From: Lingula anatina
Lineage: Eukaryota > Animalia > Brachiopoda
Direction: 5' to 3'
Assembly (NCBI GenBank): GCA_051362555.1
Contig: CM120640.1
Coordinates: forward strand, 26,994,503 to 27,058,502
DNA: 64,000 nucleotides
In this document: piece by piece, positions 7,516 through 40,900 of the stretch
How positions within the stretch are numbered: position 1 is the stretch's first letter
How the letters are laid out: every line of letters starts with the position of its first letter
Program-made: the position numbers and the translations under genes
Notes under the pieces: model-generated
Told to the model about the DNA's origin: nothing
Seen by the model: the letters and a program-made list of their open reading frames with translations, nothing else
Database searches by the model: none

Positions 7516-7619
7516 TAAAAATTATTATCCTTGAATTCTTCATCCAAAAACTAGTCAATGTCTGTATGGTGTCGATCAGGAGATTAGATTTTTTTTTTAA
7601 TTTACAACCACCCCCCTTC

Positions 7620-16283: not shown

Positions 16284-16337
<54 letters not shown>

Positions 16338-19432: not shown

Positions 19433-19478
<46 letters not shown>

Positions 19479-19684
19479 TATGTTCAATTAATACTTTGAT
19501 GAATCTAAAGCCCTTGCCAAAAGATTTGCATCACTTTTTATTGTTAGACTCAGATCCTTCCCAATTTACAAAATAGAATAATGACAAACTACAAGTACTC
19601 AGCAGCATCTTTTTATTCTACAGCATACACATTCATTAATTACAAATGGCTTGTGGCTCAGTTCTTAGAAGACCTCTAGTGCTG

Positions 19685-20445
19685 CTACTTTTTGGGGAAT
19701 TGCCCTTGCAAGCATGCACCAATACAGTCCTTAAAGGAAGCACTACACCCGGAGTAACAATTCACCAGTTCCACCACTATTTGCCGAGATGCAACAAGGT
19801 CGAGGGGTTTGGTCTCTCTAAAGCTTGTCACACGTGTATTTCGACAGGTGTCAGAACATGCCGTGTTCACGGTAACGCATTCGCTCTGGAGCATAAACAT
19901 TGTAAAATGTGATAGTAAATCACAAGATGCAATATTAGTCATATTAAAAATTCAAAAACATTCTCTCCCCACTACTTAACTTACAGGGCAAAAAAAAAAA
20001 AAAAAAAAATGGTAACAGGTGACATGTACAATTAAAAAGAAAAGGAAAGAAAGAAAAACAAAACACAGTGAGTTATTGATTACATATCATAGAAAAAATT
20101 AATCATTTTCAAGTCATATCTGCCTTTTTTGTGTACATCCTTCAAAGTTTTAGAGGACACCTCTCTACAATGTACCGTATCAGCATACCAGATACTAGAA
20201 ACAGGCAGAGGCATTCTGACAGTAGACAGTGAGTTTCTAATGTCCTCTAAAAACTCTGAAGAAAAATACCCAGAGAATATATATAAATTGTACTTTCCAT
20301 CTTTGTTGAATTATGAGGTGTGTTTCCAGTTGCATTTTTGCTATAAAATATGCTTTCTTTTACATATTGGACTACTTACAATACAGCCAACAGCATAGGC
20401 CACAAATCCGGTAATCAAAAGTAGTGAAAACCAATAACTTGCCAT
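19685..20445 (-). CDS. Secreted cysteine-rich peptide precursor A (88 aa), 8 Cys, Cx3Cx6Cx3C-x28-Cx3Cx6Cx3C
   Basis: Exon 1 20445-20380 (MASYWFSLLLITGFVAYAVGCI, donor GTAAGT) plus exon 2 19885-19685 (acceptor CTCCAG; SECVTVNTACSDTCRNTR...VNCYSGCSASFKDCIGACLQGQFPKK*), phase 0/0. Hydrophobic signal peptide ending A-V-G, TATA box upstream and AATAAA at ~19612-19617. Confidence 0.85.
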
Positions 20446-20524
20446 CTTTGTAAGCGTTTCAGATTGTACTTTTTCACAAAAAGTGAGCAGCATCTGCATT
20501 AGTTTTTATTTCTGTGTACAAGCC

Positions 20525-20532
20525 TTTATATA
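20525..20532 (-). promoter_or_regulatory. TATA box (TATATAAA) of peptide gene A
   Basis: GGAACTATATAAAGGC on the minus strand ~80 bp upstream of the ATG; conserved in the paralog at 37094-37101. Confidence 0.7.
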
Positions 20533-20841
20533 GTTCCATTTCCCCATTACAAGGAATTGTATACAAAATAACTTTCCCTTGTTTTTAATTGGTCATAAGG
20601 ATGTGAATCTATCATTACCAATCTATAATTCCTAACTGCAGGAATTATTTTTCATCAAATTGTCATTTAAAGAAATGTTATGATTGGTTACCAGGCAAGT
20701 GAAATAAATGGATTCAATTTGGGCCCGTTAGTACCTACTTGTTAAAGGTTCATTTTCTAAACTTGTAATCCACAGTTAATACAATGATAAATGCACACAT
20801 AGTCATTTCATTAAGCAGCATTTTACCAGTCTTGAAATAAT

Positions 20842-21007
20842 GGGGCCCATTGCAATAGTCCGAAGGTTCAATAGTTCAATAGTCCAATGATTCATCGGTC
20901 CGAAAGTTCACAAGAGAACCTTCGGACCAATGAACCCTTGATTGAAAAATACGATGAAAATGTTACCATTTTTCGACCAATGAACCTTCGACTATCAAGA
21001 TGCCCCC
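20842..21007. mobile_element. ~165 bp MITE with 7-8 bp target-site duplication in the upstream region of peptide gene A
   Basis: GGGGC...AATAGTCCGAAGGTTC / GAACCTTCGACTAT...GCCCC termini. AAATAAT(G) flanks both sides, and the paralogous site at ~37441 (gaaataatgcgactc) is the empty site. Confidence 0.85.
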
Positions 21008-21892
21008 AAATAATGCGACTCATCCTATTCTACTCAAACTATTATAATTTTAGCGATGTCTGTAAGGTTTACAAAACGTGGCTCTTATGACGGCTCAAGT
21101 TTCAAATTCACATAAGGCTCAGTAAGGTTTGGTACAGAATAAATTGGACGTATGATACTATTGCTAGTACTACGGTATCTGCAACTGTTTTTGATTATGT
21201 TGTTTCAAGCTTCAAATTCACATGAGAGTCAGTCAGATTTGGGATAGAATAAATTGGGCATATGATACTATTGCTAGTTCAATCTGCAACTGTTTTTGAT
21301 CATAATAGATTGTTTTGTTGTCTCAGCAAAATATTTTTTTCTTTCACAAAGATACAGAATAATCTTATTTGGAATTTAAAAAAAAAGCTTGTTTATATCA
21401 GGGATGTTTGAGCTAACAATGCCAAGAATCCCTTTGTAAAAGATGTCAGTGATAAAAGGGATATATTTCAAACAGTTTTCCAGCAAAAGAAGCCTGTAGC
21501 CAAGGAAGGCATCTACAGCATCCTCTTTATAGGATCAGTTTTATATCAGTTTATCAGTCGGATTCGCATCCGTGCCCCCCCCCCCCCCCCCCCCCCCTCT
21601 TCAAATAATCCTGGATCCACCCTGTCAAACTTGCAGCATTTTCTTGGTGATATTTAAAGTCAATTTAAATGTATTGGTATAATTTTGAAAAAAAAAAAAA
21701 AACATATATAATCAACCTGAACGTATCTGTTCATCATCTAGCATAGAGTATTGAGTTGTTGTTGCTGTTTTTTTATTAGCATGAAATGGCTGGTGTGTTT
21801 TATATACAATCTATAGAATTCATAGAAATGCCAATTTACAAAGAACTATTTTTAAATGACTCCTCCAGAGTTATTTTGGGTGGAATATCTTA

Positions 21893-22107
21893 CACCCCAT
21901 TCTCATAGATTAGATCGACCTACATTGGATCGACCTAACTCCCTGGGGGTTCACGCTAAATAGCTGTCAGCCGGGCGAACACGAAAGTTAATTACCCCTT
22001 AAAGCTTGTAGTAGGCGGGGACGGACACTTAAGGGGGATTATCTGACAGTAATCTAGTGAGACTCCCTCCGGTGATAGATCGATCTAAAAGTTGTGAGAA
22101 CAGAGCC
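21893..22107. mobile_element. ~215 bp MITE
   Basis: Imperfect TIRs (ccccattctcatagattagatcgacct / agatcgatctaaaagttgtgagaacagagcc); a second partial copy at 16426-16529. Confidence 0.7.
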
Positions 22108-22736
22108 TTACAGTGAATGGATAATTATGATGTCAGTAGTGAATGAATTTTGTACTTGAAATGGTTGTCATTTATGTTGTGCATATTTGGTGCAATGTGT
22201 TGAAACAGTCCCTTAATGGTTAAACCTCATTTGTTTCACCTTGTGACAGATTGGATTTTATGATGGATACTCTGGGGTCATGAAGTCACTGATAGAGGAA
22301 TCAACAAACAAGAAAACAAAGTTAGAACCTGACCTGCCTACTTGTACTTTGTGTCTTTTTGAACTTTATTGTATTGGATTAAACAATGAAGATGAAGGTG
22401 AATATGTGAAAGGCACATATGGAGGTTACTTTTTAGATGAATTCATGTTCATTCCCATATAATGAAAAAGGACACATCTCTGTATAAAATTTTTATACAG
22501 TGTGCAAACATGCAATGAAAATAAACACTAAAAAAATTTGTTTATATGAAATTTATTATCTGCAATTCTTTAATTGTTAAATTTGTAATCCATTCTAGGT
22601 CTGTTCCCTTCTGAATGTTAAGCCACAGTTTCAAAACTCATCTGTGAAAGGAATATCTTTTTGATGAGGACACTCCACACGCAGTTGAGAATTTCTTTTA
22701 TGAAAGGGATGATGGCAAACAGGTATATTCTAACAT

Positions 22737-23172
22737 AACAAGGCAGCAAAGCTGTCAAATGTACAGACAAAAAAACATAAAATAAAGATGCAAATAAGTG
22801 AAAAATTAAATTTTCACAAAAAACTGTTAAATTGCCAGAAAAATCTACCAAACAGACTGCATTGCCTATTGAAGCTGTATGTTAGACCCATGTTTCTTTC
22901 CTGTAAGTTTGAGAACAGTAAGTGACATGATTTCCCTTAAATGGTCATCATAGGAGCAGTGCCCAAAATAGGGGTTTCTTCAAATTTTGATGCAACTTTA
23001 CATAATGTTGAACAGCATGATGACAATCAAATGTTATTAATAAAATATTAGTTACATGGACATTCAGAAAATGTGACAAGCAAAAGTCTTCAGGATCATG
23101 GAACTTTAAAGTCACACCTTGTAAATGCCAATATGTGAAAAATTAAATTTTCACAAAAAACTGTTTAACTGC

Positions 23173-23212
<40 letters not shown>

Positions 23213-24789
23213 CAAACAGACTGCATTGCCTACTGAAGCTGTATTTTAGTCCCAGGTTTCTTTCCTGTAAGTTTGAGAACAGTAAGTGACATGATTTTCC
23301 TTAAATGGTCATCATGGAAGCAGTGCCCAAAATAGGGGTTTCTTCAAATTTTGATGCAATATTACATAATGTTTAACAGCTTAATGACCATCAATTTTTA
23401 ATTATAAAATATTTGTATCACAGATATTCAGAAAATGTGACTAGTAAAGGTCTTCAGGCCCATGGAACTTCAAAGTCACACCTTGAAAATGCCAAAATGT
23501 AAACAAGACAGCACTGTTCTGAAATGGGTTTCTTTCCATTTTTAACACTTTTTTAACATAAAACAAAATAAACATTTTACTGCCATTTTTATATGACCAA
23601 CTAAGAAAATTGATGAGATGGGAAAACTATCAATAGAACAGTGTTAAATGTCCAATTTCCTTCATTCTGAGATTCTGAACATAGTGGATGATTGAATCTG
23701 ACAAACTGCAATGATATGAGTTTATTTCCATTTTTGACACTTTATTACACAATACATGATAACAAGTTTACCATGTTTTTTACATAATCAACTAACAATG
23801 TTGTAAAGATGCAGGAAATATCAAACAAACACTTTTAGGCATCTTATTAGTTAAATAATGAGACTGTTAACATGCCTAATAATTGAATCTGAAGACATGT
23901 GAAAAAACAGTATAACTTCTAAAATAATGGCCCGAATATGCTGATTTTCGAACTCATCCTGCGTTTTAGTAAGATTGACCACTCCTGTGAGTATAATTAC
24001 AATTGGCCAATCCGTTTTTCTTATATTGTGTTATCAGTGTTGCATTTATATTGAAAATAGTGAAAAAACAGCATAAATTCCCTAAAAATGGCCCAATCAT
24101 GCTGATTTTCGAACTTGACCTGCGTATTATGAATATTCATCAGTTCTGTAAGTTTCAAGTCAAAAGGTAAAATGGTTTTCTACTTATCGTGTTATCGGTG
24201 CTGCATATATGCTGAAAAAAGTGAAAAAACAGCATAAATTCCCTAAAAGTGACCCAATCATGCTGATTTTCGAACTCGACCTGCGTATTATGAATATTCA
24301 TCAGTTCTGTAAGTTTCAAGTCAAAAGGTAAAATGGTTTTCCACTTATCGTGTAACCGGTGCTGCATATATGCTGAAAAAAGTGAAAAAACAGCATAAAT
24401 TCCCTAAAAGTGACCCGATCATGCTGATTTTCGAACTTGACCTGCGTATTATGAATATTCATCAGTTCTGTAAGTTTCAAGTCAAAAGGTAAAATGGTTT
24501 TCCACTTATCGTGTTATCAGTGCTGCATATATGCTGAAAAAAGTGAAAAAACAGCATAAATTCCCTAAAAGTGACCCGATCATGCTGATTTTCGAACTTG
24601 ACCTGCGTATTATGAATATTCATCAGTTCTGCAAGTTTCAAGTCAAAAGGTAAAATGGTTTTCCACTTATTGTGTTATCGGTAAAAGTGCACGGCGACGA
24701 CGGTGCCGACGGCGACGGCGGCGACGACGGCGACGACAGACGCAGATGATGGCTATATATACAGACACATCTGTGTCTGTACATAAAAA
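22737..24789 (-). mobile_element. Apparently complete non-autonomous Helentron-like element (HINE), copy C, ~2.05 kb
   Basis: Read on the minus strand: T-run, subTIR ATGTACAGAC with its inverted partner (24755-24789), (GTC/GCC)n microsatellite (24690-24742), ~4-5 x 161 bp tandem repeats (gcataaatt at ~24071, 24232, 24393, 24553), ~365 bp duplicated units, 3' subTIR GTCTGTACAT (22759-22768), short hairpin GACAGC-TTT-GCTGCC and terminal CTTGTT. Confidence 0.82.
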
Positions 24790-25806
24790 TACATTAAAAC
24801 ATGAACATTAAAATAAATAAACTTTGTCAAAATATTTAGAATTTTTTCAATGGTGAAATTAATATGACTGGTTTAAGCATAACGAGCAGCAATCTGACAT
24901 TAAATTCAACCCCTAAACAATGCAGATAGACTTATCCAACACTTTTTTATTTCAGGTTGCCAGGACTGGCACAGCTGAAGGTGAAACCAAGCTCTGGCAG
25001 ACGTGCAAAATTTGCATACATTGACAGTGTTTATAAATAACAGCTTTTTTACATTGAGACTTGAAGTATAGATCTGAAAACAACACCAACAACAAACAAA
25101 ACAATAAAAGCTCATGTCTTAACTGTTTACTAGAACAATAAACTTCCAGCACATTTTCACAACATTGGTCAATAGCGTTTTTTTTTTTGGGGGGGGGGGG
25201 GGAATTGGTTAATAATTACGTATGTACAGTGAAAAGGAATCTGCTGGAATTGTCCACCAGAGAAATCCAAGCATTTCGTGGATTTATCTCTCAATTTCCC
25301 TCATCTGAATTTAGTAATGCTATGAATAATAATGTTGTAGCAAATTTAAAGCTTTCAGGAGTTGGTAGACCTTAAATGTGTGTCATATTGACTGTTTGTT
25401 GATTTTGAAACATCACATGTATATTACAAAAAATTCCTCCCACCAAAACCACTCTTCATTTTATTTTGAATGTTCCTGTGAACATCCCTGAATTGATTCT
25501 GGTGTCCTACTTGTGTCTGAAACAATTTATTAACAAGTTATCATGTCAGCCACAGTTAAGTGCCAGCCAGCAATCTCTTTTCCCATAAAAAGTGGAACTT
25601 TCACCTATTTATGCCAGAGCAGACCTTCTCCCGGTAAAAGGGCAGTTCGTTTTAACCCCAAGAAACCCTCTGGCTTTGGGCCTGAAGTGACTTGATTCCT
25701 ACTTGCATTCTGTCTATTGCATATGTAAGCTGAGCATTATCTCACACATGTTATTTTTAAGCTGATATTACAGGAGAATTGGAATCTTTTGACTATGTTG
25801 ACAGAC

Positions 25807-28800
25807 TTAATTTTTTTTCAACTTCTTCCTTGGAGGTTGTTCTATGTCTGAAAGTAACAAAAATGTCATTCAGTTGTGTCACAAACATTTCTGTTGGACT
25901 TTTTTAAGTGTTAATTATGTGTACTTGTAGCTATTGCGAAGAAGTTTGTCCAAGAAATTTTTCCAATCAATGTCCAAGCCGTTCTTTTAAGTATGTGTGC
26001 ATTTTCTGTGATGTAAATGGCTAATTATGAGTAAAAGAAAGAAAATGTTTAGATAATGTTGACAATTGCCATATACCTCCAGTGCTGGACTCCTCGACTG
26101 ACACTTGCTGGTCATGCTCTTGGTAATGCAAGGGAGGACAAGAAACTCTTTTCTCTTTGTAGTTCTACATAATAAAAAAGGAATGGTATCAGGAAAATGT
26201 TCACCTTGCTGGTGTTTGTTAAACACAATGTAACAATGAACCTCTTATTAATTCTTTTGTTACAGATGTGCTAGAAGAAAAATTATAAGAGTAATAAAAT
26301 GATTTTTACCGCAATAATTTGCTTGGCCTGTAACATCTCCTCTTCTCTACCTAAAGTTTCTAATGTTGGCAATATGTCGCTTTCAATCTTCTGGAATTCA
26401 AAGTCGTCTAATTCAAGACCTTCAGTAGGTGGCGCTTCATTCATCAGCTCCAGTAGGGGTATCATCTGCTGTCTGGTCTCTTCCAGGTACGATAATCTGT
26501 CCCCTGATGTATCATTATAAAAATATACTGTAAATGGATGCCCTATCAAGTTACTGAAGAATTGCAACAGATGGCTTGTAGAATGTAATCCAGTTCTCTT
26601 TAAAATTGGCCCTTCTTCACTACAGTTTATAGGCATTTTCAGTGTGATTTTAAACAAGTTGTTTTACTTGCTTCAGAAAGTAGAGGTTTTATTTTTAAGA
26701 CCATACATTATCTTACAATAAACGAGACTTATGCTATTTAATATTCAATGTACAAGCTTTATATTGATAAAAATTGTGATCTTTCATTTTTTTTTTTTTT
26801 TTTTTGATTAGACAAAAAATTCCAGTTACATGCACCTTCAGCTTCTTCTTTCCTCTTTGACATGAGCTGCAATATGTATGCTCTGAAAATCATAAAGCGC
26901 ATTCGATATCCCTGGTAGATGGAAGTATATTTTAGACCCATTTCCAGAGCATCAGTTGCCCACTTCAGAGCAATGGCAAACATATCTCTGCTGGACACGG
27001 ACCCTTCTGATTCCTGGAAAAACAGATTTATTTGCTTTGTGAAATAGCATGTCAATCTGATACTAATATAAAGTACAAGTATCATTGAAACTGATAGAAA
27101 ACTGTAAGGAGAGATGTCATTAACAAAATTGCCATTGTTTGAATACAAATAAAATATTTTTTAAATTCTTTAGTGGAATAACAACAATACAATGTAAATG
27201 TAGAAGTTGAATATGTTTTCAAGAACACCTATAATTACAGCACTCTGCCCTTAACCTATAAATCTAACCTTTTCACCATGTATGGCTCTCTCCATGTGGA
27301 GTTGTGCATACGTTTTCATGTGGAGGGCTAAATTAAAGTTTCTAACATTCCATTTACTGTTCAATTCAATTGCTTTCTTGTAGAAATCTGCAGCTCTCTG
27401 CCAATGTTCCATTGCTGCTTTCTGATCACTGTAATTTCGATAATGCTGGTAAATACCATGTTCTGCTGTGGCTATATTGACCAAGAACTGTGGGATATCA
27501 TGATGATTTTTTACTTCTTTGCTAAGAATATCATAACTTTCAGTGTGGAGTTTTAAAGCTGTGGTCTGGGACTCCAAGGTTTGCTCATCAAAATATGCAG
27601 ATGCCAGCAAACTGATGGCTCTTGCTATATGAGCTTGTGATTTGCCACCGAATCGTTTGAAAATGTCTACTGATTCAGCCAAAGCCTGTTTTGCCTTTTG
27701 TGTGTTCTTGAAGTAGTGAAGTTGCAATTTGCCTTCAATGAATCGAAAGAAAGCATACAGCAACAATGATGCTGTGTTTCCTTCACCCTCTGCATGGATT
27801 TTCTCAACTTCAGCTTTGATGTCATCTAAGCTCTCTATCACACAACTATATTTGTCCAAATCTGTTGCACTTGATGCTTTCCACAGTGTCATGAAGCAGT
27901 ATGTCTTCCTATGGTTTTTCTTCTTTGCTTCTTCAGCCTGCTGGTCAAAGAACATAAACCGTTTCAAGGTTACCTCAAATGTTTCCATTATCATATACTG
28001 ATAAAAGAGTTCCATGAACTGTTTTTTATCTGAGATTTCATAAATATTTCTGTAGGATGGAGATAAAACAAAAAATGTATTCAAGTAAACTAAATTCTTC
28101 TGTATTTCTGCATTCAGTGCAACATATCCAGTTTTACGTGCCATTTTAGCAAATTGGCAGAGTTTTCTTTCACAAAACTGTACAATATTTGCTCTTGATT
28201 GTTTTCCCTCTGGATAAAGGTCCTTTTCTGCTGGATCCCAGGCTCTTTGATCAGCAAAATCTTGCACCAATGGATGAAGATAATATCGTAACTCTCTCCT
28301 CCGGTTCCCATAGTACATAATGGGGACCAACTCTTCCTTAAAGCTGCTGTCATAATCATCAACCTCTACTAGATGGTGACACTTGAGAATATGAAGGTCT
28401 AGTTGCACATCATAATCATGGATGTTGTTCCCTCCCATAATGGCCTTTGCAGCATCAAAATCAAAACTTCCGCTGAATACAGACAGGCGGACCAAGCACT
28501 TTTGCAAGCGGGCATGTAAGGCTGAAAACATTTCTTCCAAGCAACAATTCACAAGCTGAAGAATTTCCAATTTTGACCCACTGTATTTGTGCAACCTTTT
28601 GATCATCTCTGCTGGGGCAACTTCACCACACTGCATTTCACCACTTATTATCTTCAGTGCCTGAGGACTACAGCCACATTTTTTGGCCAGCTTTCTACAC
28701 TCTTTGTCAGTCATCTTAACCTGTATTTAAATGAAAATTTGAAGCATGAATTCAATTTAAATGCTGTGTCAAAACAAAAACACAATGTTATCACTGATAA

Positions 28801-29529
28801 TTTGTTTAATTCTTGAAGAAAAAGCATGAAACTTCAACATCAATAATCAAATAAATAAATATCACACACATATCCAAACTATAACTTTTCAGTTATACTG
28901 TGCCACTCTGTTCCCAAAATACGTGACTGTTCTCAACTTAATGCATGCAACATTTTTTTTTACAAATCCACATTGCACATCTCAGTTTATACCTTTGGGG
29001 TACATTGCCTGAGCAATTTCATAGCATCTGGTAGATCTAAAGGCTGTAACTCAAACTCCTGTAGTTGGCCTTCAAATCTTGACACCTGAATGTGGTTGAT
29101 AATGGCTTGCTGTGAATCCAGCTCATTCTCAATAATCAGCTTCTCACGGGTTGTCATTATAACCTTGAACTAAAGCAATATACAAAAATCATCAATGTTT
29201 TTATTTCATCAATCTTGGCACATAATAACATTTGAAAATAACATTACTTGATTTTAATTGGGCAGTATTAATACTGTGAAGAGAGTGTATTGTGAAGCAA
29301 AGTACCTTTGTGTTTTTGATTTGTTTCAAGAGGTTGTCAATAGCATGCAGAAATGGTCCTTTAGATTTCTTCATTAGCTCATCACAGTCATCAAGAAAGA
29401 GAATGGTCTCTGTAAAAACAGATTTCAAATGTGATTGATTGATTTCATATAGTACAAATTTAAATAGACTAGTCCTGTAGGTAACTGTGAAATATGTTTC
29501 TAGCTCTTCAACCTCCACCTCCTCCCAAA

Positions 29530-29560
<31 letters not shown>

Positions 29561-30771
29561 ACTAGCCCTTTTTCCATATAAAAAAAATGTTTTAATAAAA
29601 GTATCAAATTTGTAACAGACAAACTTGATTACCTCTTGTTTCCATTTGAATAATACTATACAGTTTACTAGCCATGTCTTCTTCACTGTAGAATGTCATG
29701 CTAAGACCCGTTATGCCCTCTGTATCCCCTGCTTTAGTTGTCAAAACCTGCAGCACATTTCCCAAAAACTCTTTCACAGTTTCTTTGGATCTACAAAAAA
29801 GTTGTTCTTAGACGGTTAAAAAAATATATATATTTTTAATAAACAAAAGTTTTGATAAAAGTTTTGCATGACTAATTTAAATGTTTTTAAAGTCAATATC
29901 CATACTCACCTGAGTTCTACTTTCTTGATTCTACATTTCATTTGCCAGCATATTTCGGTTGCTAAACTTGATTTTCCAATACCACCAAAACCACAAATAC
30001 ACACAGCTGAAAGTAGAATAATTCTGTTATTGCAACTTTCTGTAATGTACTGTATTTACATACAGGCGTATTACTAGTAGGTCCTAAAATATTTCAAAGT
30101 TGACAAACAATAAAGGTAATTTACTGAACCTCCAGTACTTTTCTCACTTTAGAACCTGCAGTTTTATTCTATGCAATTACTGATAAATTTGAGACAGTTT
30201 TACCCCTCAAAATGGTTGCTACATGTGCTAGTATTGCCATTAAAATTGGGGGTAGTGTAAATAAAGAAATTGTATTGTAGAAGTGTTGATTGTTGTTGTT
30301 TGACCTATGTGTCCATGAGCTTGCCAGAAACAGCAAGTGACAAAACTTCATACCTTTGGTTTTATTAGTTTCTTCATTCATTATCAAACTTCCAATAATA
30401 TTGTCAACATAACCCCCTCTTCCAACAAACAGTTTATCCCTCTTCACTCTTTCAGTCTCAAGTTGCTTTTGATATTCATCCAATAAATTGCTGAATGCAA
30501 CACTGCCAAGATCCACGTGAATTCTTAAGACATTTACAAAGTCCTTCAAAAGTTCAACAAAGTCCTCTTCATCTGCAAACTGGTTGTATAAAGAACTAAG
30601 GAAAGAAGAGGCAGTGTGTGTTTTGTAATATTCTTTCCCCAGCCTATCCTTTGCAAGTACTTTCAACTTCTCTAAATCATCGTCTTGTAAGTGTTCACTT
30701 AATTCGTACAACAGTTCCCGAAGTGGGTAGACCTTTGTGGTGCCAAAACCTACTGACATGCTAGTTGACAT
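25807..30771 (-). CDS. NLR-like STAND ATPase: N-terminal death-fold (DED-like) domain, NB-ARC, TPR-like repeats, C-terminal basic NLS-like motif (~965 aa, 10 coding exons)
   Basis: Exons approx. 30771-30354, 30006-29910, 29790-29633, 29409-29306, 29163-28993, 28720-27269, 27013-26836, 26503-26310, 26164-26077 and 25847-25807 splice in frame. Motifs: LRELLYELSEHLQDDDLEKLKVLA (DED start), LFVGR, Walker A GFGGIGKS, Walker B ILFLDDCD, sensor-1 VIMTTRE, LQPLDLPDAMKLL, GxP-like CGCSPQALKII, winged-helix RLSVFSGSFD, MHD-like YYLHPLVQDF, then Ala/Tyr-patterned TPR helices. Confidence 0.85.
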
Positions 30772-31523
30772 TTTCTTGGCCTAAAATCCCCGATTACTGA
30801 GCTTCATTTGGACAGTACACAATATGAACCAGTAACCAGGAAGTTTTTGTTTTAATGGGAAATAGTTGGTCGCCGATACAGTGGCAGCGCAAGCTGGGAT
30901 GCAAACGTGGCTGCATGGATATCATTGAAATTGTAACGTTAAAAATACAAATATATAAATTATTAGTATCAGTTTTAACACAATACAAATAAAATACACA
31001 CGCAATAAATAAATAAATAGATAAATAAATAAATACCCTGCGAGCAGGAAAAAAAAAGCAGATCATATGCCTGTGCTAGTGTACCGTGCCCCTTATGCTA
31101 GTGTCATTTTTCAGGAAGTAATGTGGTATCACTTTAGGTTGAACTGTTTGAAACTATATAGGGCCCTACATGATAGCATTTTGTCAAGTTAAGTGGAAAT
31201 GATAAAATAAAAGAATTCTCTAAATATGCATCTAAACTTGTAGGCCTATTGTGAGAAGTTTTAACAAAATAATTATAAATGTTTAAAACCCCTTTTCAAA
31301 TAGTTAAAAATAGGATGGCTGAAGTAACTGAAAAGTTTGAACAACACAATCAGCAAGGAGGGGCAATTAGGCCAAAAAGACGGGGGTGAAAAGATCACTG
31401 ATATATGCCTTACATGCAGTCATTCGAAGATTTTAAGGTATTGTAATGAAATTTGGATTAATTTAGAAAAAAAGTGTTTTTAATAAATGCTGATATTTTG
31501 ATAAACCACCCTTGTTTGTTTTG

Positions 31524-31586
31524 GCACACACACACACCCACGCGCGCGCGCACGCACGCACGCACACACACACACACACACACACG
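31524..31586. repeat. Compound (CA)n/(CG)n/(GCAC)n microsatellite
   Basis: Directly visible. Confidence 0.9.
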
Positions 31587-33226
31587 AACATCTTCGGATC
31601 AAGTAAGAAAGAATATAAAAGACAAGTGAAGAATGCTTAATTTAAATCATTTTTTCTAATTACATCACATAAAGAGTGATGTACTTTTTGTGCACCCTGC
31701 ATCGTCAAAAATGGATGAACAGTCCTATTAGCCTATTTTACGTTAGGAAGCGACCCAATATTGTATCCCCAAAAGTAGTTTTACTCATTTGCGATGATAA
31801 TTTCACAAACGCTATGCACATTCTAGAAGAAAAGGGAGCGCTGAATGTAAGACAACCAGCTATTACACCACAATAAATATTCTTGCTTGTCACATTAGAT
31901 AGAATACTGAATGCAAAACCGACTGAAATAGGAGAAAAAAGCGAATTTGTATGCATTAATTAATTTACAGTCAACCTGCAGGCAAAACATTTGAACCTGG
32001 AAGCACTGTATATACTTCCATGATTTGATGGAGGAAAATGCTTACTCATCAAATCCGCTTAAGGCTGCCTTTTTCATTTACATATTTTTATGGGTCATTT
32101 TTTTTTTGCAAAGTGCAGTGTTGGTGTGTATGTGTATGCTTGTAAATGAGCTTGCATTAAATATTGCTTGTCGACACTCATCAAATAGCAGACGAGTAGG
32201 AATCAAATTAAAAATTATCCGAGGAACCGATGTGAAAAAGCTAAGAGCTAGCCCCTCTAATAGCTAATACACCTATGAAAAGTAACCAACCATCACTATA
32301 GTGCTCTAACCTCTAAGTTACAATATGCAGACCTATATGGGTTTTTGAGGTTACCTCTGGCTTAAGACAAATAATGTTTTTCACATCACGTAAATTGTTG
32401 TTTTTGAGCGCTTCCAATTTAGCACTTCGCAAGACGTAATGCACATTTTATACGCAAGAACAGTGAATTAAATGATGTGACAGTAGGGATATCTAAGACG
32501 GTAAAAAAAATCCGGGAACAGTCTCTTTAAAACCCTCGAGCGATTACCCGAGGCTTGTTAGTAGTTTTATATGGGTGTTTTTATCACTTTAGAAACAACT
32601 TTTCCACACAGTACCGTTATATTTTTGTAAGTGAAGGTGCCTTATATTGGTGTATCATCAAAACGGGGGAAAACAAAAGGTAAATGGCAATTTTCAGTAA
32701 TTTTTCTTGTTAACTTGTTGGAAATGCCTTTTTAATAACTGTATTTCTTTGTAAGGTGGCCAGTTTGTTTCATTTGAATTGTAAGCTCACTTTCACTGAC
32801 TACAAAGCTTGTTTTGTGTAAGGAATGAAATACTGTTAAGTCATATGTGAAAATAGTTACAGTGGATCTCAGTTTTGATAGACAGAAAGTTTTCATTTAT
32901 GATAGATCCAGATATTTGAGCTATCATAAATGACTGTTTCTTGTGATAATGTTCAGTCCCACAGTGAATTCACGCATATTGTTATCTTCCTGTCTGTGGT
33001 CTTAATGTCTATGTTAATGAGAGAGAAGTATTTTTATTTCCATTCCTCGCCGCGTGAAATACGTGCTCTTCCTCTTCTATATCGCGTAGCTTCTTAGAAG
33101 AAAACATCTTCTTGTGGTGGACAGCAATCAAGGACTTTGTAAGATCCATTATTGTAAGTTACTACTGTACGGTCTTATTTGCATCATACCTTTAAACTTC
33201 CTACCTGAGTAAATGACGCACGTATG

Positions 33227-33227
<1 letters not shown>

Positions 33228-33273
<46 letters not shown>
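33228..33273. repeat. (TAT)n microsatellite upstream of the GT92 acceptor site
   Basis: Directly visible. Confidence 0.9.
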
Positions 33274-33274
<1 letters not shown>

Positions 33275-33380
33275 GCATATTTTCTTGTATTTTCACCATT
33301 GTTATCATTTATAGTGTTTCTGTTTAACTGATCAGTTATCCAATATTTTTTTCAGACATATTGTCTAATACAAACCAAAA

Positions 33381-34781
33381 ATGAGACCGCCACTGGTGAT
33401 ATTTGGTCTATTGCTGTTGGGTCTCGTATTTTACCTCGTACTTTACAGAGAGGAACTGAAAGGCGGACTTCCTCACTTAAAACAACTGCTAATTATAACA
33501 GAGAAAACACCATTTCTAACACCAAAACTTGAAAGACACGACAGAAACATAACAATAATGAAATGGCTGAATCCAAAAATGTTCACTGAAATCTATGTTC
33601 TGTCAGCGTATTATGACGACAGACCGACGCTAGACCCGAAAACGAAACCGGTTGTGCGCATAATCGGAGTAGCAGATAAAGGAACCATTGAGGACAGAGG
33701 CGAAAAGCTGTTCTGTATAGTATGGCATGACGTTTCGCACAACGACAGTGTCTTGATAGAAATGGAAGTGACTCACCTCGGATCTGGCGCATATAGCCAT
33801 GGTAGATACTTTCGCCAGTACATATTTATTTGCCCATTAACTAATATTACCATTATTAAACCGTCTACTGTCTCAGTGACAGACGGTTTATTCCATAAAC
33901 AATTTGATTGGAAACTCATGAAAAAAGTTTTTCCCAGGATTCCAGTAAGGTATCCAGAGAAACCCACAAAAAAGATGGATTTCGGCCAATGCACAAGTAT
34001 AACATATTGGACAGTAGATCCATACCGCGTTGTGGAGTGGGCAGAGCTGCATAGGATTTGGGGAGTGAAAGAGATGAACATATACGGTAGCATGGTTAGT
34101 GAAAAAACGGAGAAAGTGTTCAGACATTACCATCAGGAGGGTTTCCTCACGTACACGATTGTAGAAAGGCCAATGAATCAAACCGATGAGGCGATATTTT
34201 TTCTCATGTCATCACCGGTGATAAATGACTGCATATACAGAAATATGTACCGATATAATAAGATTATAGTAGTGGATTTGGATGAAATGATCGTGCCTCG
34301 TGGGAATCTGTCAAATTATCCCCAGCTTTTAGATGCGATAGAATCGTCAGTTGAAACCAGGCATCCATATCGTATGTATAATTTCCGAAACCTATACTTT
34401 TTTTTCGAATTACCTCAAAATGAGAAATATCCAATACAACTGAGAACGCTGCGACAAATTGGTCGTTTGAGGGATATAACTCCCTATGGGACTGCAACTA
34501 AAAGCATAATAGATCCCATGGCATGCACAAATATGCACAATCATTTCTGTTGGCGCTTGACAAAACTGAGTGATACCCATGGCCATTCCATTGACGTGCA
34601 TCCCGGTTTTGGTTTAAATCAACACTACAAAAAGTGTCATTTTGATCAGTATATGGTGACATATAATTTACCACCTTGTAAAGAAGCCCTGAAAAATTTC
34701 TCGGTCGATTATACCATGCTTCATTATAAGGACCTGCTTCTACCCAATGTCGAATCACAATGGATTAAATTGGGGCTGTGA
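33381..34781 (+). CDS. Glycosyltransferase family 92 (DUF23 / GALT-1-like beta-1,4-galactosyltransferase-like), 466 aa type II membrane protein, single coding exon
   Basis: Short cytosolic N-terminus plus TM helix, YVLSAYYDDR, EWAELHRIWGV..MNIY, INDCIYR, DxD motif VVDLDEMIVP, KSIIDP..C..MHNH and terminal HY motif typical of GT92. A splice acceptor (ttttcag, ~33355) lies just upstream in the 5' UTR. Confidence 0.88.
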   Translation: MRPPLVIFGLLLLGLVFYLVLYREELKGGLPHLKQLLIITEKTPFLTPKLERHDRNITIMKWLNPKMFTEIYVLSAYYDDRPTLDPKTKPVVRIIGVADKGTIEDRGEKLFCIVWHDVSHNDSVLIEMEVTHLGSGAYSHGRYFRQYIFICPLTNITIIKPSTVSVTDGLFHKQFDWKLMKKVFPRIPVRYPEKPTKKMDFGQCTSITYWTVDPYRVVEWAELHRIWGVKEMNIYGSMVSEKTEKVFRHYHQEGFLTYTIVERPMNQTDEAIFFLMSSPVINDCIYRNMYRYNKIIVVDLDEMIVPRGNLSNYPQLLDAIESSVETRHPYRMYNFRNLYFFFELPQNEKYPIQLRTLRQIGRLRDITPYGTATKSIIDPMACTNMHNHFCWRLTKLSDTHGHSIDVHPGFGLNQHYKKCHFDQYMVTYNLPPCKEALKNFSVDYTMLHYKDLLLPNVESQWIKLGL

Positions 34782-36002
34782 ATCAATTGAATAGTTTTTT
34801 CTTTGATCAGGTACCTTAAAGATTTAAGTGTGATATTCCATTCACGTCCAATCAACAGTTAGTTCCCAACTGAATTAAAACAATAGTTAACAAAATGGGA
34901 CCAGATGCTGCGGCAAGTTGTTCGATTTATGAAATATGTATTTGATGTATTTTTCAAGAGTCGTTTAATCTTGGAAGATTATAGAAGTCTTAATATCACC
35001 CCGTCTGCCTCCCTCTACCAGGGCGACAGATTGATTTTCAACAGATATTCACAGATATGTCTCTAGATAAAAAGACGGTCATTTTGGTCTGTTGTTCCCG
35101 TTCACTACCCTCTGAAATCAGGGGTCTCTAAAATGGTAAACGAAATAAGTATTAAATATATTCGATTCAAAAATAATTTTGTAACAAATTACTATCGGAT
35201 CCTATGGTCAAAGTGTACCCGCCCGCAAGCCTGAATCAAAAAGTAATCTCACATTTGCTACATGTGCCACGTTAAAGTAACTGGTTAATCAATACGTGTT
35301 TAATCAATTATCGACGAAATGACTGGTGCCTAAATGTGTTCTCAGATGGGCCTACCACTCTCACGCTTATATTTATCAATATGATTAATTTCTAAAAAAA
35401 TATCAGGTTCATTGTAAATTAGTTCGGCAAAAAGTAGCTAAAATCACACTTAAACTCTGGGAATTTTATCAAAAATTAAAAGTAAAAAGAGAACAGGTTT
35501 TTATTTATTTTATCTAATTACCATCCGCCAATTAATTATCTCAAAAACGAAGGCCCTATTTATAAAAATATATCCCGTGTAGGGAAGGATTGTAAAGCTG
35601 CACCCTTGAAGACTAATCGATGGTGACCTTTTGGTACTGATTACCAACAATGTAATAATAAACCCAAAAGAAAAATAACAAACTTAACAAATTTAAGTAA
35701 AGATTTTGTATTTCTACGTATACAAGTGGAGTTGGCCAAATGTCTTGTGCGTGTTGATTTATTGAAACAATATTCGTGGATATATATGTTCAATTGGCAC
35801 CTCAATGAATCTAAAACCCTAGATAAAAGATTTGTGTCATTTTCTACTGTTAGCCGCAGAAACTTCCTAATTTACAAAATGGAATAATGACAAAACACAA
35901 GTTTTAAGTGGCATATTTTTATTCTAAACGGCATACAAATCCATTAATCACAAATCACTTAGAAGACCTCCAGTGTTGGTACTTTTAGGGGAATTGCCTT
36001 TG

Positions 36003-37015
36003 CTAGCATGCATCAATACAGTCCCTCAAGGAACCATTACATCGGGAGAAACAATTCACCACCTCCAAGTCTAATTGGCGAAAGACAGCGTGGCTGAGGA
36101 CTTTGGCCGTTCTTAGGCTTGCTGCACGTCTTTCTCGACAGGTGTCAGCACATGCCATATTCGCAGTACCGCATTCCCTCTGGAACATGAACATTGTATT
36201 TTAAGTTAATCACGAGATGCGATATTAAAAACCCCAATACAAAGCTTTCTCTCTACTGCAACACGAGTTTCACACAGGATCTGCCTACTCTACTTAACTC
36301 ACAGGGCGAAAAACGGTAACAGGTGACGCCATTAAAAAAAGAGAAATAATAAAACAATGGCATTGTGAGTTATAGACTATATATCCGAGAAAAAAATTAT
36401 CATTTTCAGCAGTCAAACATGTCTTTTTTGTGCACAACCTTTAGAAGGAAAAAAACGTTTGAAAACTGGAAAATTAATCTTAAATGATAGTCTTTTTGAA
36501 CGTTTTTAAATAACATATCCATCTTATATAGGAAATAAAGATATGGAATTCAGAATATATATATATTTTTTCAATTTTACAAAATTGCCTGCAAACCAAA
36601 TTTGACTATCACAATAACAATAATATTTGAGAGAAAATAATGGCCAGTGTCAATTTGTGGACCAAAAAGGAAATAAATCAATTTTAAGCCACCTGTAAGT
36701 ATATTTCATGCTTACAGACATCACCTTGAGTTTCAGAGAGCTCAGGAAAGTCCCCTCTCTACAGGCCAGTTTCTGATGTTCTCTGAAACTTTGGGCAACA
36801 GACATTCACCCTGAAGAAAAATACCCAATGGTGTTTGAATTATACTTCCTATCTTATTGATAAATAGAATTCGAGTAAAGGGAACAATAATGTCTTTTCA
36901 GTTGCATAATTGCTATAAAATGTTACCTTTTACACATTGGACTACTTACAATACAGCCAACAGCATAGGCCACAAATCCGGTAATCAAAAGTAGTGAAAA
37001 CAAATTAGGTGCCAT
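36003..37015 (-). CDS. Secreted cysteine-rich peptide precursor B (80 aa), same 8-Cys framework as precursor A
   Basis: Exon 1 37015-36950 (MAPNLFSLLLITGFVAYAVGCI, donor GTAAGT) plus exon 2 36179-36003 (acceptor TTCCAG; RECGTANMACADTCRERR...VNCFSRCNGSLRDCIDAC*), phase 0/0. TATA at 37094-37101; AATAAA at ~35918-35923. Confidence 0.85.
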
Positions 37016-37093
37016 CTTTGTTAGCGTTTCGGACTGTACTTTTTCAATAAAGTGAGCAGTACCCAAATAAGTTTTTATTTCCACGTAAACGCC

Positions 37094-37101
37094 TTTATAT
37101 A
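37094..37101 (-). promoter_or_regulatory. TATA box (TATATAAA) of peptide gene B
   Basis: Same sequence context and spacing as in paralog A. Confidence 0.7.
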
Positions 37102-37902
37102 GTTCCATTTCCCCATTACTAGGAATTATATACAAAATAACTTACCCTTGTTTTTAAACGGTCATAAGGATGTGAATCTATCATTACCAATCTACAATTC
37201 CTATCTGCATATCCAGAAATTATTGTTCATCAAATCGTCATTTAGAAAAATATTAGGGTTGATTACCAGGCAAGAGAAATAAGTGTATTCAATCAAGGAG
37301 TTATAACAGAATTCCTTGATTCAATTTCAGTCTGTTAGTTCCCACTAGTTAAAGGTTCATTTTCTAAACGTGTAATCCACAGTTAATACAATGGTAAATG
37401 CACAGACAATAATTTCACTTGGCAGCATTTTACCGCTCTTGAAATAATGCGACTCATCCCATTTTACTCAAGCTATTCTGAATTTAGTGACGTTGGTAAG
37501 GTTTACAAAACATGGTGACTCAAGCTTCAAATTCGCAAAAGGCTCAGTCAGGTTTGGGAAAGAATAAATTGGGCAGCTGCTTTTGATTTAAATAATTATG
37601 ATATGTTGTTTTGTTTTACATTGAATCTCAGCAAAAGCTTTTTTCTTTCACAAAGATAAAGAATAATCTTACGAGACTTTCAAAACAAAAAAAGTTTATT
37701 ATAATCTTCTACTGGATTTTCAAAATAAAACAAAAAAGTTTATATCAGCAATGTTTGAGCTAACAATGCCAAGAATTCCTGTGTTAAAGATTGTCAGTGA
37801 CAAAAGGGACGTGTTTCAAAAAGTTTTCCAGTAAAAATGGGCTGAAGCCAAGGAAGGCATCTACAGCATCATCTCTATAGAATCAAGTTCTACATCAGTT
37901 GA

Positions 37903-40900
37903 TCACTGCCCAGTGGCAGGGACTGCAGATTTCTTGCACAGTTTTGCTAAAAGTCCTGACATCTGTAGTAATGATTCCACTCCTTCTGCTATCCTCATGT
38001 GTGTATATCCAATTTCCTATAAATAAAACAATAATACTTTATTTTTCTGATTCAAATTATTGTTTTTCTTTTTATCAAGAGCTTGTAAAATATGTGGGTA
38101 TTACCTCCAATATTTCTGTGACTGTCAGTCACCATCATCAGGGAGTATTTTACATATTTTACAAGCTCTTGATAAAAAGAAAAACAATAATTTGAATTTA
38201 TACATACAGAGCTAATGAAACTGTTCTCTCATTTATTTTTCTGGTCTTTATACCGATACACTTGATAAAACATGTCATGAAGAGTGAGACTCTAGAAACA
38301 CAGACCTCTTATAAATATAAAAATACAAGTTCATGGATTTTGAATCCATAACCGTCTAAATTTTGTTTGAACATGATTTTACAAATTAAAGGCCCAAAAT
38401 ATTCCACAATAACAACCTTATTGTCATTCTGCTAAATCACCATGCAATATGGTGAAAGCAAACCATGCTGCTTTAGAATAATTTAAAAATTTTCCTAACC
38501 TTAATATATTCCAACTTCAAATACTCAGGCATATTGTGTGTTTTGCAGACCCGGAACACAATTGTAATGATGTCCTCTGGAGAGTAACCTAATTTCCACA
38601 GGGAGTGCATTATCTTGTAGGCTTCATCAATGTTTCCGTTCACACAGTGATCAAGTATGTTCTTCACATGAAGTGGGTGAGGTTCATCACACACCTGGAC
38701 AATGAACACAATATGTTTCGTCATTAGTTAAAATTATACAGGTATTTCAAAGGTAGAAAGAAAGAGAAAAAGAAAGAAAAAAAGAGAAAGGAGTGAAAGA
38801 AAAAAAGTGAATCCCAAAATTTTCATCTTATAGACACTTTAATAATTAAACTTTAAATATACAGTATATACATTCTTTGGCAAAGATATAAGGTTAGGTT
38901 ATATCTATAGGAATATTTTTCATATCCCTTTCCCTCTAGAATGCTCTTGTAGATTCATTCTTTATCAGTCTGACTCCATATTTTGAGGAAAACTTACCTT
39001 AAAAACATTTTCACTATTCACATGCCCAAAGCCTTGGAAAGTGGACTGTAAATTGTTTATGCCCTAATAAAAAGACACAAAAGCTGAATAAAACCAAAAT
39101 AAATGCAGAAACTATATATTCTGCCCGAAATTTGTTTTAATCCTTATAAAAACTGTATTTATTTTGCATGTCAGCAATTACAAAGAAATCCAGTTGAATT
39201 AACCTAAAGTCATTCATACATGTGGCAAAACCAACTCTTTAACACAATATGAACAATCCTAACTTAAATTCACTGTCATCTAAACAAACAAAACGGTAAC
39301 CATCAATTTATAAAATAACCACAGACCACAGGCACAGGAGTTCCGGAAAAAAAAAAATTACTCAATTAATATTGAAATTGACCATGGAGTCCTTGGTCTT
39401 TCTCACCTGTCTCATGTCCCCCTGGGCTGTGAAAACTACAGCTTCTAGGCCATCATCTGAATAACTCACATTTTCCTTTTCACATACAGTTAGTAACCTG
39501 TCCAACACCTGTTTGTCAGAGAGTTTGGAATACCTTAAGACAGCACACCGAGACTGGATAGGTTCTGTAATAACATAAAATGCTGTTGATATACACGTGG
39601 AGGGTTTCCAAAAAAAAAACAAAAAAAAAAACAAAAAACATGTTTTAAGGGGTCATCCATTCTTGACATCATTTTCACAAGTTTATTATTATTTTTTTTA
39701 CCTTAAACTTGAAACCATAGATAGATAACATAATTTACCAATAATCTTGTCCGATGCATTGCAAGCTAGAGCAAATCTGGTGGTTTTAGAGTAAATCTCC
39801 ATGGTTCTCCTCAGGGCCTGCTGAGCACCATCAGTCATGCTGAAATAAAGAAGGGGTCATTTTGTACCTGTGGTGTCATTTTCAAAGAAAACAGTTAAAA
39901 AACCCATTGCTTTATTGTAGCATGATGTGAGTGTACAGCAAAAACCAAGGGAGTATCTGTAAGTGACTGATATAACACGGAGAGATGTAAGCATTCTATT
40001 CTCTTGCATATTTACCTGTCTGCCTCATCCAATATGATTATTTTATGTCTTCCTTTTGGCAGAGTGACCTTCTGCTGGGCAAACATCTTGATCTTGTTCC
40101 TAACAACATCTATACCCCTAAGAACAAAATTAAACAGATATTTGTCTGTACAGTACAAAACCTAATGGTATCTGCTATTGTAATTTTGCCTAATGATGAA
40201 TTGTCAAATTCAAGTGAAACTAAGCTACTAACAAATCCAAACAATCTTGTGTATTTTGCTAATTTTAGTTTCCAAAAGAATTCTACCTAAGTGTAAATAA
40301 AAGTGTAATAATATGACAACACAAAAGAGTAAGACATTTATTAATGTATTTTCATATAATGCTTTTATTTAAATATTGCTATGTTCTAGTACAATCTTTA
40401 TATTAGTTTTCTACCTGTCATTAGAGGCATTTAACTCCATAACTGCATCTCTGAAAGAAGGTCCTAATAAAGCTCTGGCCAAGCACAAAATACTAGTCGT
40501 TTTGCCTGTGCCTGGTGGACCCTGTAAACCAAAAGACTGATTTAAAAGTTTAAGTGACTTCAATATTAGTTTTTATGCATCAACATAATCTAGTTAATAA
40601 CAGCAAATATATCATAGACATTTGAATGCATTAAAGCCTAACATGCTGTTGAGACTGATGTGAAAATGAACTGCACACAGGGGCGGATTTAGGCCGTCTT
40701 CTGGGTCTTCCGGAAGACGGTCAGATTTTCAAGTTTACATTGACGGGTATCTATTTTTTCTGTCGGAAGACGGTCAAAAATGGAGGTTGGATCAACAAAG
40801 ATAATTTGGAAGACTGTCAGAAAATATCTCTGAATCCGCCCCTGTGCACATGCTACTGGAAATTAACTTACCGCAATTATTACATTTGGAACATTGCCTT

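What the first reader, a model, noticed from the sequence alone, without database searches (positions are those of the whole stretch)
19685..37015. Two unannotated secreted peptides with a symmetric cysteine-ladder framework resembling nemertean neurotoxin B-IV
Seen: joining the signal-peptide exon to the second exon at the GTAAGT donor yields mature peptides that start at Cys, with exactly Cx3Cx6Cx3C-x28-Cx3Cx6Cx3C in both paralogs. The ORF track misses this because the first Cys is on exon 1. Both genes have a TATA box, intact splice sites and AATAAA. Established: i,i+4,i+11,i+15 Cys spacing puts all four Cys on one helix face. Cerebratulus neurotoxin B-IV is a helical hairpin with four ladder disulfides and spacing Cx3Cx6Cx2C...Cx3Cx6Cx3C (recalled from memory, with a shorter linker). 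Inference: a possibly undescribed family of disulfide-stapled helical-hairpin toxins, antimicrobials or pheromones. The similarity is in the framework only; I see no residue-level homology to B-IV.
Basis: partly seen in the sequence, partly recalled or inferred. Interest (0 to 1): 0.85.

Follow-up and report, generated by a model that had tools for sequence, protein, structure and literature searches.

The report
Orphan brachiopod cysteine-ladder hairpin peptides
A lamp shell (Lingula) carries two duplicated two-exon genes of a spliced, expressed family of small eight-cysteine peptides with no relative in the databases searched; they are predicted to be secreted two-helix hairpins held by four disulfide rungs and likely serve in defence, resembling ribbon-worm neurotoxin B-IV in shape but probably not by descent.

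Summary
Observation confirmed. Two minus-strand paralogs (20445-19685, 37015-36003) each have a 22-codon signal-type exon ending Cys-Ile, a GT-AG phase-0 intron, and a second exon completing Cx3Cx6Cx3C-x28-Cx3Cx6Cx3C. The window is Lingula (neighbour 99% identical to an L. anatina protein), a filter-feeding brachiopod, not a nemertean. RNA reads splice at the predicted junctions in 3 of 7 runs laid. Those reads are mostly 85-95% alike to the window, so they show the family is expressed (other alleles or paralogs), not these exact copies. AlphaFold2 gives a clean two-helix hairpin for gene 2 (pLDDT 87.7 in one of five models) whose turn sits at the cysteine symmetry centre; gene 1 is low-confidence. 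Between paralogs all cysteines are kept and the signal exon is 94% identical, while the mature exon has dN/dS about 1.1. No homolog was found in any protein library searched. B-IV membership fails on loop length (28 versus 10 or 16), absence of Trp and of the N-terminal arm, and no detectable sequence similarity. Best reading: a lineage-restricted secreted defence-type peptide family on a convergent scaffold; function untested. The scan noted similar ladder hairpins on unrelated DNA.

The parts
20380..20445 (-). Gene 1 exon 1 coding part: predicted signal peptide plus Cys1-Ile
   Evidence: reads of a family member end at 20380
19886..20379 (-). Gene 1 intron, 494 nt, GT-AG, phase 0
   Evidence: joint 19885/20380 in 9 reads of X7, from a related copy
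19685..19885 (-). Gene 1 exon 2: mature region with Cys2-Cys8, 8-residue C-terminal tail, stop
   Evidence: AF2 pLDDT 62
20481..20530 (-). Gene 1 core promoter: TATAAA (20530) and Inr-like TCACTT (20486)
   Evidence: consensus match only
19612..19617 (-). Gene 1 polyadenylation signal AATAAA
36950..37015 (-). Gene 2 exon 1 coding part: predicted signal peptide plus Cys1-Ile; 62 of 66 nt identical to gene 1
36180..36949 (-). Gene 2 intron, 770 nt, GT-AG, phase 0
   Evidence: joints in X7, X8, X9 from related copies or alleles
36003..36179 (-). Gene 2 exon 2: mature region ending at Cys8; predicted helices 2-24 and 30-57
37050..37099 (-). Gene 2 core promoter: TATAAA (37099), Inr-like TCACTT (37055); 5 molecule ends at 37043 in X7
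35918..35923 (-). Gene 2 polyadenylation signal AATAAA
19081..21556 (.). Daughter duplicated block carrying gene 1; includes a 71%-identical copy (21197-21556) of the 3' UTR of the RFC-subunit gene that lies just upstream of gene 2
35207..37905 (.). Likely parent block carrying gene 2; ends at the stop codon of the RFC small-subunit gene (about 37905)

Best explanation
These are two duplicated genes of a Lingula peptide family with no homolog found, spliced and expressed in some samples, whose products are predicted to be secreted two-helix hairpins likely stapled by four ladder disulfides (C1-C8, C2-C7, C3-C6, C4-C5) and likely act as host-defence effectors. Shown: exon structure, splicing of the family at these junctions, cysteine conservation, no detectable homolog. 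Predicted: the signal peptide is cut at or two residues before Cys1; helix 1 runs through C1-C4, a turn near residues 25-29 of exon 2 reverses the chain, helix 2 carries C5-C8. Inferred: the four disulfides lock the base into a protease-resistant rod, and the unstapled 28-residue tip, where basic residues cluster (5-6 K/R against 3 D/E; R15, R18, R23, K26, R34 shared), binds a microbial, parasite or predator surface or protein rather than lysing membranes, since net charge is only about +2. The likeness to B-IV is most likely convergent use of an i, i+4, i+11, i+15 helix face.
For: Splice joints at the predicted sites. Sample-restricted expression: 62, 20 and 25 joint reads in X7-X9 against 1-3, 0-3 and 2-8 per joint of the neighbouring RFC gene, and 0 in X2 where RFC joints have 26-54; 0 in X1, X3, X4. 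Conserved signal exon versus divergent mature exon: 4 of 66 against 43 of 174 nt differences, Fisher p=0.0009, the pattern typical of defence and venom peptide families (established knowledge). 7 of 7 exon-2 Cys kept (p about 0.002 at the non-Cys rate) with dN/dS 1.08 overall, 1.21 without Cys. Of the 17 listed read differences in exon 2, none hits a Cys and 14 of 15 codons change residue. AF2 hairpin H2-24/H30-57, pLDDT 87.7; Cys pair sums all 57, centre 28.5, inside the predicted turn. Known ladder hairpins are mostly defensive or offensive. A DED-TPR gene, possibly an immune receptor, lies between the paralogs.
Against: No activity, tissue or protein evidence. dN/dS is not significantly above 1 (p=1.0 and 0.84; reads 15 N against 2 S, p=0.37, with 217 variant rows hidden), so relaxed selection fits as well. 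Net charge +2 and pI 8.2 are low for a marine antimicrobial. Only 1 of 5 gene-2 models is confident (others 56-64), and the gene-1 model breaks helix 2 at 46-50, which allows another pairing for C5-C8. Both models lack Cys1. The exact window copies were not seen spliced with their own letters. Gene neighbourhood says little in animals.
Confidence: 0.45

Rival explanations
1. Water-borne or paracrine signal (pheromone, gamete attractant or recognition peptide, neuropeptide-like ligand) on the same hairpin scaffold.
For: Mild charge; sample-restricted expression; high divergence among copies or alleles also fits reproductive proteins. An acrorhagin ortholog is reported in sensory neurons of Nematostella (passage, PMC11896702). 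Disulfide-stapled helical pheromones such as Aplysia attractin exist (recalled).
Against: Neuropeptides are usually conserved across phyla; no homolog was found. Tissue of the expressing runs is not known.
Confidence: 0.22
2. Two-chain product: the precursor is cut at the R-x-x-R directly after Cys4 (and perhaps before Gln35), leaving two short helices joined by four interchain disulfides, as insulin-type or 2S-albumin-type precursors are processed.
For: R15 and R18 are shared by both paralogs, a full R-x-R-R in gene 2; these codons and R34-Q35 are not among the listed read differences.
Against: Gene 1 has only the minimal R-x-x-R; the site lies inside a predicted helix; the second site lacks a helper basic residue at P4, P6 or P8; the linker is as conserved as the rest (11 of 28 against 11 of 23), unlike a disposable connecting peptide.
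Confidence: 0.1
3. Extracellular-matrix, shell or mucus binding protein (for example collagen binding).
For: Lingula has many novel, basic, small shell matrix proteins (supplement passages of PMC4595640). The lowest-rmsd whole-chain match among small secreted proteins is the collagen-binding anopheline antiplatelet protein hairpin 4okv (Z 7.3, rmsd 1.6, 58 aligned, 16% identity).
Against: Z 7.3 is tied with many unrelated coiled-coil hairpins. The described novel shell proteins are alanine-rich, 100-200 aa; the signal motif was not found in that supplement's text.
Confidence: 0.12
4. True distant homolog of nemertean neurotoxin B / beta-nemertides, acting on arthropod nerve sodium channels as an anti-predator toxin.
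For: Eight Cys, about 6-7 kDa, ladder hairpin as in B-IV. Loop 4 already varies (10 or 16) within the nemertean family. Brachiopods and nemerteans are related lophotrochozoans (recalled).
Against: No sequence hit in the PDB library at E<=10 or in Pfam. Loop 28, no Trp, no N-terminal arm. B-type toxins were not found even in a hoplonemertean (passage, PMC9132205), so the family looks lineage-restricted.
Confidence: 0.07
5. Metal-binding helical peptide using cysteine thiols, like copper-storage four-helix bundles.
For: Weak DUF326 match to gene 2 residues 1-16 (E 3.7, far below cut-off).
Against: A signal-type exon sends the peptide through the oxidising secretory path; an even, symmetric Cys set fits disulfides; the hit is at chance level.
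Confidence: 0.04

Closest known systems
Neurotoxin B-IV (Cerebratulus lacteus, PDB 1VIB) and beta-nemertides
   Same: Secreted, eight Cys, about 55-65 aa, helical hairpin with ladder disulfides (section 12 of PMC6410017; passages of 10.1101/2020.05.26.118075). The Cx3Cx6 spacing of B-IV is recalled, not seen in a call.
   Different: C4-C5 loop 28 against 10 or 16 (PMC11126048); no Trp, no N-terminal arm with Tyr-9/Hyp-10; weakly basic; brachiopod; no detectable sequence similarity.
Turgencins A/B (ascidian Synoicum turgens antimicrobial peptides)
   Same: Marine invertebrate, nested ladder connectivity, helix-loop-helix, pI 8.3-9.2 (passages of PMC7024374).
   Different: Six Cys, shorter chain, C-terminal amide; no amidation glycine after Cys8 in gene 2 here.
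Acrorhagin I and octocoral U-GRTX-Esi20/21
   Same: Disulfide-stabilised helical hairpins with three or four bonds, under 20% identity among themselves (passages of PMC11896702, PMC11722136).
   Different: Cnidarian venom peptides from intronless genes, shorter; one acrorhagin bond links helix to loop.
Alpha-hairpinins and vicilin-buried peptides (plants), scorpion kappa-KTx
   Same: CxxxC motifs on two antiparallel helices with ladder pairing.
   Different: Two disulfides, 25-45 aa, other kingdom or phylum; here four CxxxC motifs.
Anopheline antiplatelet protein C-terminal hairpin (PDB 4OKV; SG7/30-kDa family)
   Same: Secreted disulfide-linked hairpin of the same length; model aligns over 58 residues, rmsd 1.6, Z 7.3.
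   Different: Four Cys, part of a larger mosquito salivary protein; the score is tied with generic coiled-coil hairpins.

Membership tests
Nemertean neurotoxin B / beta-nemertides | Eight cysteines in a secreted peptide of about 6 kDa | tested here: met
   8 Cys; predicted mature length about 60-68 aa; signal peptide judged by hydropathy only
Nemertean neurotoxin B / beta-nemertides | Antiparallel helical hairpin | tested here: met
   Prediction only: gene 2 best model H2-24/H30-57, pLDDT 87.7; gene 1 model low-confidence with a third helix
Nemertean neurotoxin B / beta-nemertides | Ladder disulfide connectivity | tested here: inconclusive
   Register symmetry fits; no coordinates or chemistry
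Nemertean neurotoxin B / beta-nemertides | Loop between Cys4 and Cys5 of 10 or 16 residues | tested here: not met
   28 here against 10 or 16 (PMC11126048)
Nemertean neurotoxin B / beta-nemertides | Detectable sequence similarity to B-IV | tested here: not met
   No hit at E<=10 in all PDB chains with single sequence or profile, none in Pfam; queries were exon 2 only, and no direct pairwise alignment to B-IV could be made
Nemertean neurotoxin B / beta-nemertides | Activity residues: aromatic at Trp-30, Tyr-9 and Hyp-10 on an N-terminal arm, Arg-17, Arg-25 | tested here: not met
   No Trp in either exon 2; mature chain starts at or two residues before Cys1. Residues from PMC6410017; mapping onto Cys numbers uses recalled B-IV positions
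Nemertean neurotoxin B / beta-nemertides | Structural match to 1VIB | tested here: inconclusive
   Fold lists are filled by generic hairpins
Nemertean neurotoxin B / beta-nemertides | Crustacean paralysis, nerve-membrane binding | not testable with these tools
   needs assay
Alpha-hairpinins / vicilin-buried peptides | Single CxxxC-xn-CxxxC unit with two disulfides, from plant precursors | tested here: not met
   four CxxxC motifs in an animal gene
Turgencins | Six Cys, C1-C6/C2-C5/C3-C4, amidated C-terminus | tested here: not met
   eight Cys; gene 2 ends at Cys8; features
Classical cationic membrane-lytic antimicrobial peptides | High net positive charge and a free amphipathic face | tested here: inconclusive
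   net about +2, pI 8.2, hydrophobic moment up to 0.45-0.52, partly explained by helix-helix packing

The most novel reading that the evidence does not exclude
An undescribed, fast-diversifying brachiopod effector family on a long four-rung hairpin, with copies or alleles at this locus differing by about 10% in the mature exon while the neighbouring RFC gene differs by about 1%. It would be either cut after Cys4 into a two-chain, four-disulfide molecule or a deep relative of nemertean B-toxins, which would place the origin of that toxin scaffold in a defence peptide older than the ribbon worms.
Probability: 0.15. Interest if true: 0.75.

Novelty: new variant of a known kind. Interest (0 to 1): 0.45.

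Why it matters
No brachiopod peptide of this kind turned up in the paper searches, and the genes are missing from protein sets that do hold their Lingula neighbour. The family gives a concrete, testable candidate effector for a phylum whose secreted defence peptides are barely known. It also adds a longer four-disulfide member to the helical-hairpin scaffolds that peptide chemists use. If the read variants are alleles, the locus is unusually polymorphic. The interest is tempered because orphan cysteine-rich peptide families are common in marine invertebrates, the fold is generic and no activity is known.

Tried and rejected
No whole genome is held, so family size genome-wide was not counted; tblastn finds only the two copies in the window. 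Word-seeded protein search with gene-1 exon 2: no candidate; with a 40-residue frame holding the signal exon, longer proteins: 1 candidate, none at E<=10. HMMER over 1.84 billion representatives with the two-sequence profile: 3 hits at E<=0.001, all summed from 4-6 repeated short stretches in unrelated repetitive proteins, rejected on inspection. ESM Atlas: no usable hit for gene 1; gene 2 could not be run. PDB sequence: only CcmM at E about 1, no Cys match; none with the profile. Pfam: only DUF326 at E 3.7. Metagenome contigs: 198 pattern matches, 0 confirmed. Foldseek on both models: no E<=0.001; VIA best Z 6.6 and 7.9, generic helical bundles and hairpins; 1VIB was not among the listed rows, which does not exclude it. 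No RNA holder was listed by the word index; 7 of the 9 raw-read runs offered were laid, at 6-30% of each run, X5 and X6 not at all. The exact motif CX3CX6CX3C was in none of the papers searched. A recalled 2018 paper on the Lingula immune gene set is not held and could mention such peptides. The beta-nemertide alignment (supplement of PMC5864730) is a picture and was not readable. Lingula shell-protein tables were only text-searched. Upstream in-frame ATGs of gene 1 (20499, 20493) were rejected as starts: they precede the Inr-like site and are absent in gene 2. Artefact or pseudogene reading rejected: intact frames and splice sites despite 35% intron divergence and spliced family reads.
Full report
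Observation. Gene 1 has a 22-codon exon (20445-20380) ending Cys-Ile, a 494-nt GTAAGT...CCAG intron and exon 2 at 19885-19685. Gene 2 has the same layout (37015-36950, 770-nt intron, 36179-36003). Exon-2 cysteines are at 3, 10, 14, 43, 47, 54 and 58 in both, which with the exon-1 Cys gives Cx3Cx6Cx3C-x28-Cx3Cx6Cx3C. The pattern occurs nowhere else in six frames and is expected 6e-8 times by chance. TATAAA, an Inr-like TCACTT and AATAAA are present for both. Exon 1 is hydrophobic (Kyte-Doolittle peak 2.62) with small residues at -3/-1 before Cys1; a site two residues earlier fits the rule too. SignalP was not available.

Organism. The glycosyltransferase-92 gene next to gene 2 is 99% identical to Lingula anatina LOC106159139. 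The animal is a filter-feeding brachiopod, which lowers the prior for a predatory neurotoxin.

Expression. Seven of nine offered RNA runs were laid, each read in part. On gene 1, run X7 gave 9 reads across 19885/20380, and X1, X3, X4 none. On gene 2, joints to 36950 that map to 36179 once the 2-3 letters between are counted had 62, 20 and 25 reads in X7, X8, X9 and none in X2. The RFC-subunit gene next door showed the opposite pattern (1-3, 0-3 and 2-8 reads per joint in X7-X9, 26-54 in X2), so the family is expressed in some samples and not others. The spliced reads are not the window's own copies: 54 of 63 X7 reads on gene 1 were 90-95% alike, and on gene 2 nearly all reads carry another letter at the listed sites (71 of 73 at 36163). 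Two spliced forms are present, starting exon 2 with Ser or Met. RFC exon reads in the same runs differ from the window by as little as one letter, so the animals are the same or a very close species. Unspliced X2 reads that run on from the RFC 3' end across gene 2 share some of the variant letters (4 of 5 at 37004-37009). The expressed forms may therefore be divergent alleles of the gene-2 locus or further paralogs; the tools cannot tell which.

Evolution. Between the paralogs exon 1 differs at 4 of 66 nt, exon 2 at 43 of 174 (Fisher p=0.0009), the intron is 65% identical and the 400 nt upstream 87%. Exon 2 has dN/dS 1.08 (1.21 without Cys), not significantly above 1. All seven exon-2 Cys are kept, p about 0.002 at the non-Cys rate. 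Of 17 read differences listed for exon 2, none hits a Cys and 14 of 15 codons change residue; the excess is not significant (p=0.37) and 217 rows were not shown. The duplicated block (35207-37905 against 19081-21556) ends at the stop codon of the RFC gene and carries its 3' UTR (71% identical copy at 21197-21556), so gene 1 is likely the daughter copy.

Homologs. None was found: word search of 5.8 billion clusters, HMMER over 1.84 billion representatives (3 hits, all repeat artefacts), Pfam, PDB sequences, ESM Atlas for gene 1, metagenome contigs. Short queries limit sensitivity, but the neighbour's Lingula model is in the same collection, so the family appears to lack gene models there.

Fold. 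AlphaFold2 on exon 2 of gene 2 gave one confident model (pLDDT 87.7, pTM 0.66; the other four 56-64) with helices 2-24 and 30-57. The four ladder pairs all sum to 57, centre 28.5, which lies in the predicted turn, and each Cys quartet spans 60 degrees of the helical wheel. This supports C1-C8, C2-C7, C3-C6, C4-C5 by geometry, without measured distances. The gene-1 model is weak (62.2) and breaks helix 2 at 46-50, so a local C5-C8/C6-C7 pairing is not excluded. Fold searches return generic antiparallel hairpins (best Z 7.9); the closest small secreted chain is the anopheline antiplatelet protein hairpin 4okv (Z 7.3, rmsd 1.6 over 58 residues), tied with unrelated proteins.

Mechanism. I commit to a secreted host-defence effector (0.45). 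The rigid stapled base is inferred to give stability in seawater or mucus. The unstapled tip holds 5-6 basic against 3 acidic residues, with R15, R18, R23, K26 and R34 shared, and is inferred to be the binding surface. Net charge is only about +2, so target binding is more likely than membrane lysis. Support is indirect: constant signal exon, fixed Cys frame, free inter-Cys residues, duplication, restricted expression, and the known uses of the scaffold. Rivals: a signal or gamete peptide (0.22), matrix binding (0.12), a two-chain product cut at the R-x-x-R after Cys4 (0.10), a true B-toxin homolog (0.07), metal binding (0.04).

Comparison with known families. B-IV is a 55-residue, four-disulfide helical hairpin toxic to crustaceans, with Tyr-9, Arg-17, Arg-25 and Trp-30 important (section 12 of PMC6410017); its family has a C4-C5 loop of 10 or 16 (passages, PMC11126048) and was not found in a hoplonemertean (passage, PMC9132205). 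The Lingula peptides have a loop of 28, no Trp and no N-terminal arm, so they are built like B-IV but fail membership. B-IV's exact Cys spacing is recalled; the alignment figure was not readable. Ladder hairpins recur in plants, scorpions, cone snails, sea anemones, octocorals and ascidians, and are described as convergent (passages: PMC11722136; 10.1101/2020.05.26.118075; PMC11896702; PMC7024374). I saw only passages of these papers, plus a text search of the Lingula genome paper and its supplement (PMC4595640), which did not show this family. Paper searches for the motif and for brachiopod defence peptides listed nothing on it; subscription papers, including a recalled survey of Lingula immune genes, were not searchable.

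Verdict. A real, apparently undescribed, lineage-restricted peptide family on a known, convergent scaffold: new variant of a known kind, interest 0.45.

Noticed in passing
window 26283-30780, minus strand: Multi-exon gene between the two paralogs with an N-terminal death effector domain (Pfam DED, E 1.9e-7), a Walker-B-like stretch in the 29201-29695 frame (no Pfam hit) and C-terminal TPR-like repeats; looks like a DED-NTPase-TPR immune receptor.
   Followed up: partly
window 33369-34781, plus strand: Single-exon glycosyltransferase family 92 gene, 99% identical to L. anatina LOC106159139, one of at least five Lingula paralogs; barely covered in the four runs laid.
   Followed up: partly
window 37778-39652, minus strand: RFC small-subunit gene (RFC2-like by recall); its transcripts end near 37778 and low-level stranded reads in X2 run on over the promoter and intron of peptide gene 2.
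   Followed up: partly
window 1-7560: Satellite of about 145-bp units, about 48-50 copies.
   Followed up: no
window 7696-9081, 15617-17922, 22788-24790: Dispersed repeat family with internal 161-164-bp tandem units, in both orientations.
   Followed up: no
window 35011-35094 and 38050-38228: Short, partly palindromic repeats (MITE-like) that attract hundreds of RNA reads from elsewhere in the genome.
   Followed up: no
window 47489-53488, minus strand: Exons resembling a CHFR-type E3 ligase (zf-CRD, E 3e-4; RING-like start); name by recall.
   Followed up: no
window 57552-57920, plus strand: Exon resembling a WD40 protein (WDR76-like by recall); no informative Pfam hit.
   Followed up: no
window 36036-36038 region (gene 2 exon 2, residue 48): N-glycosylation sequon N-G-S in gene 2, absent in gene 1.
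   Followed up: no
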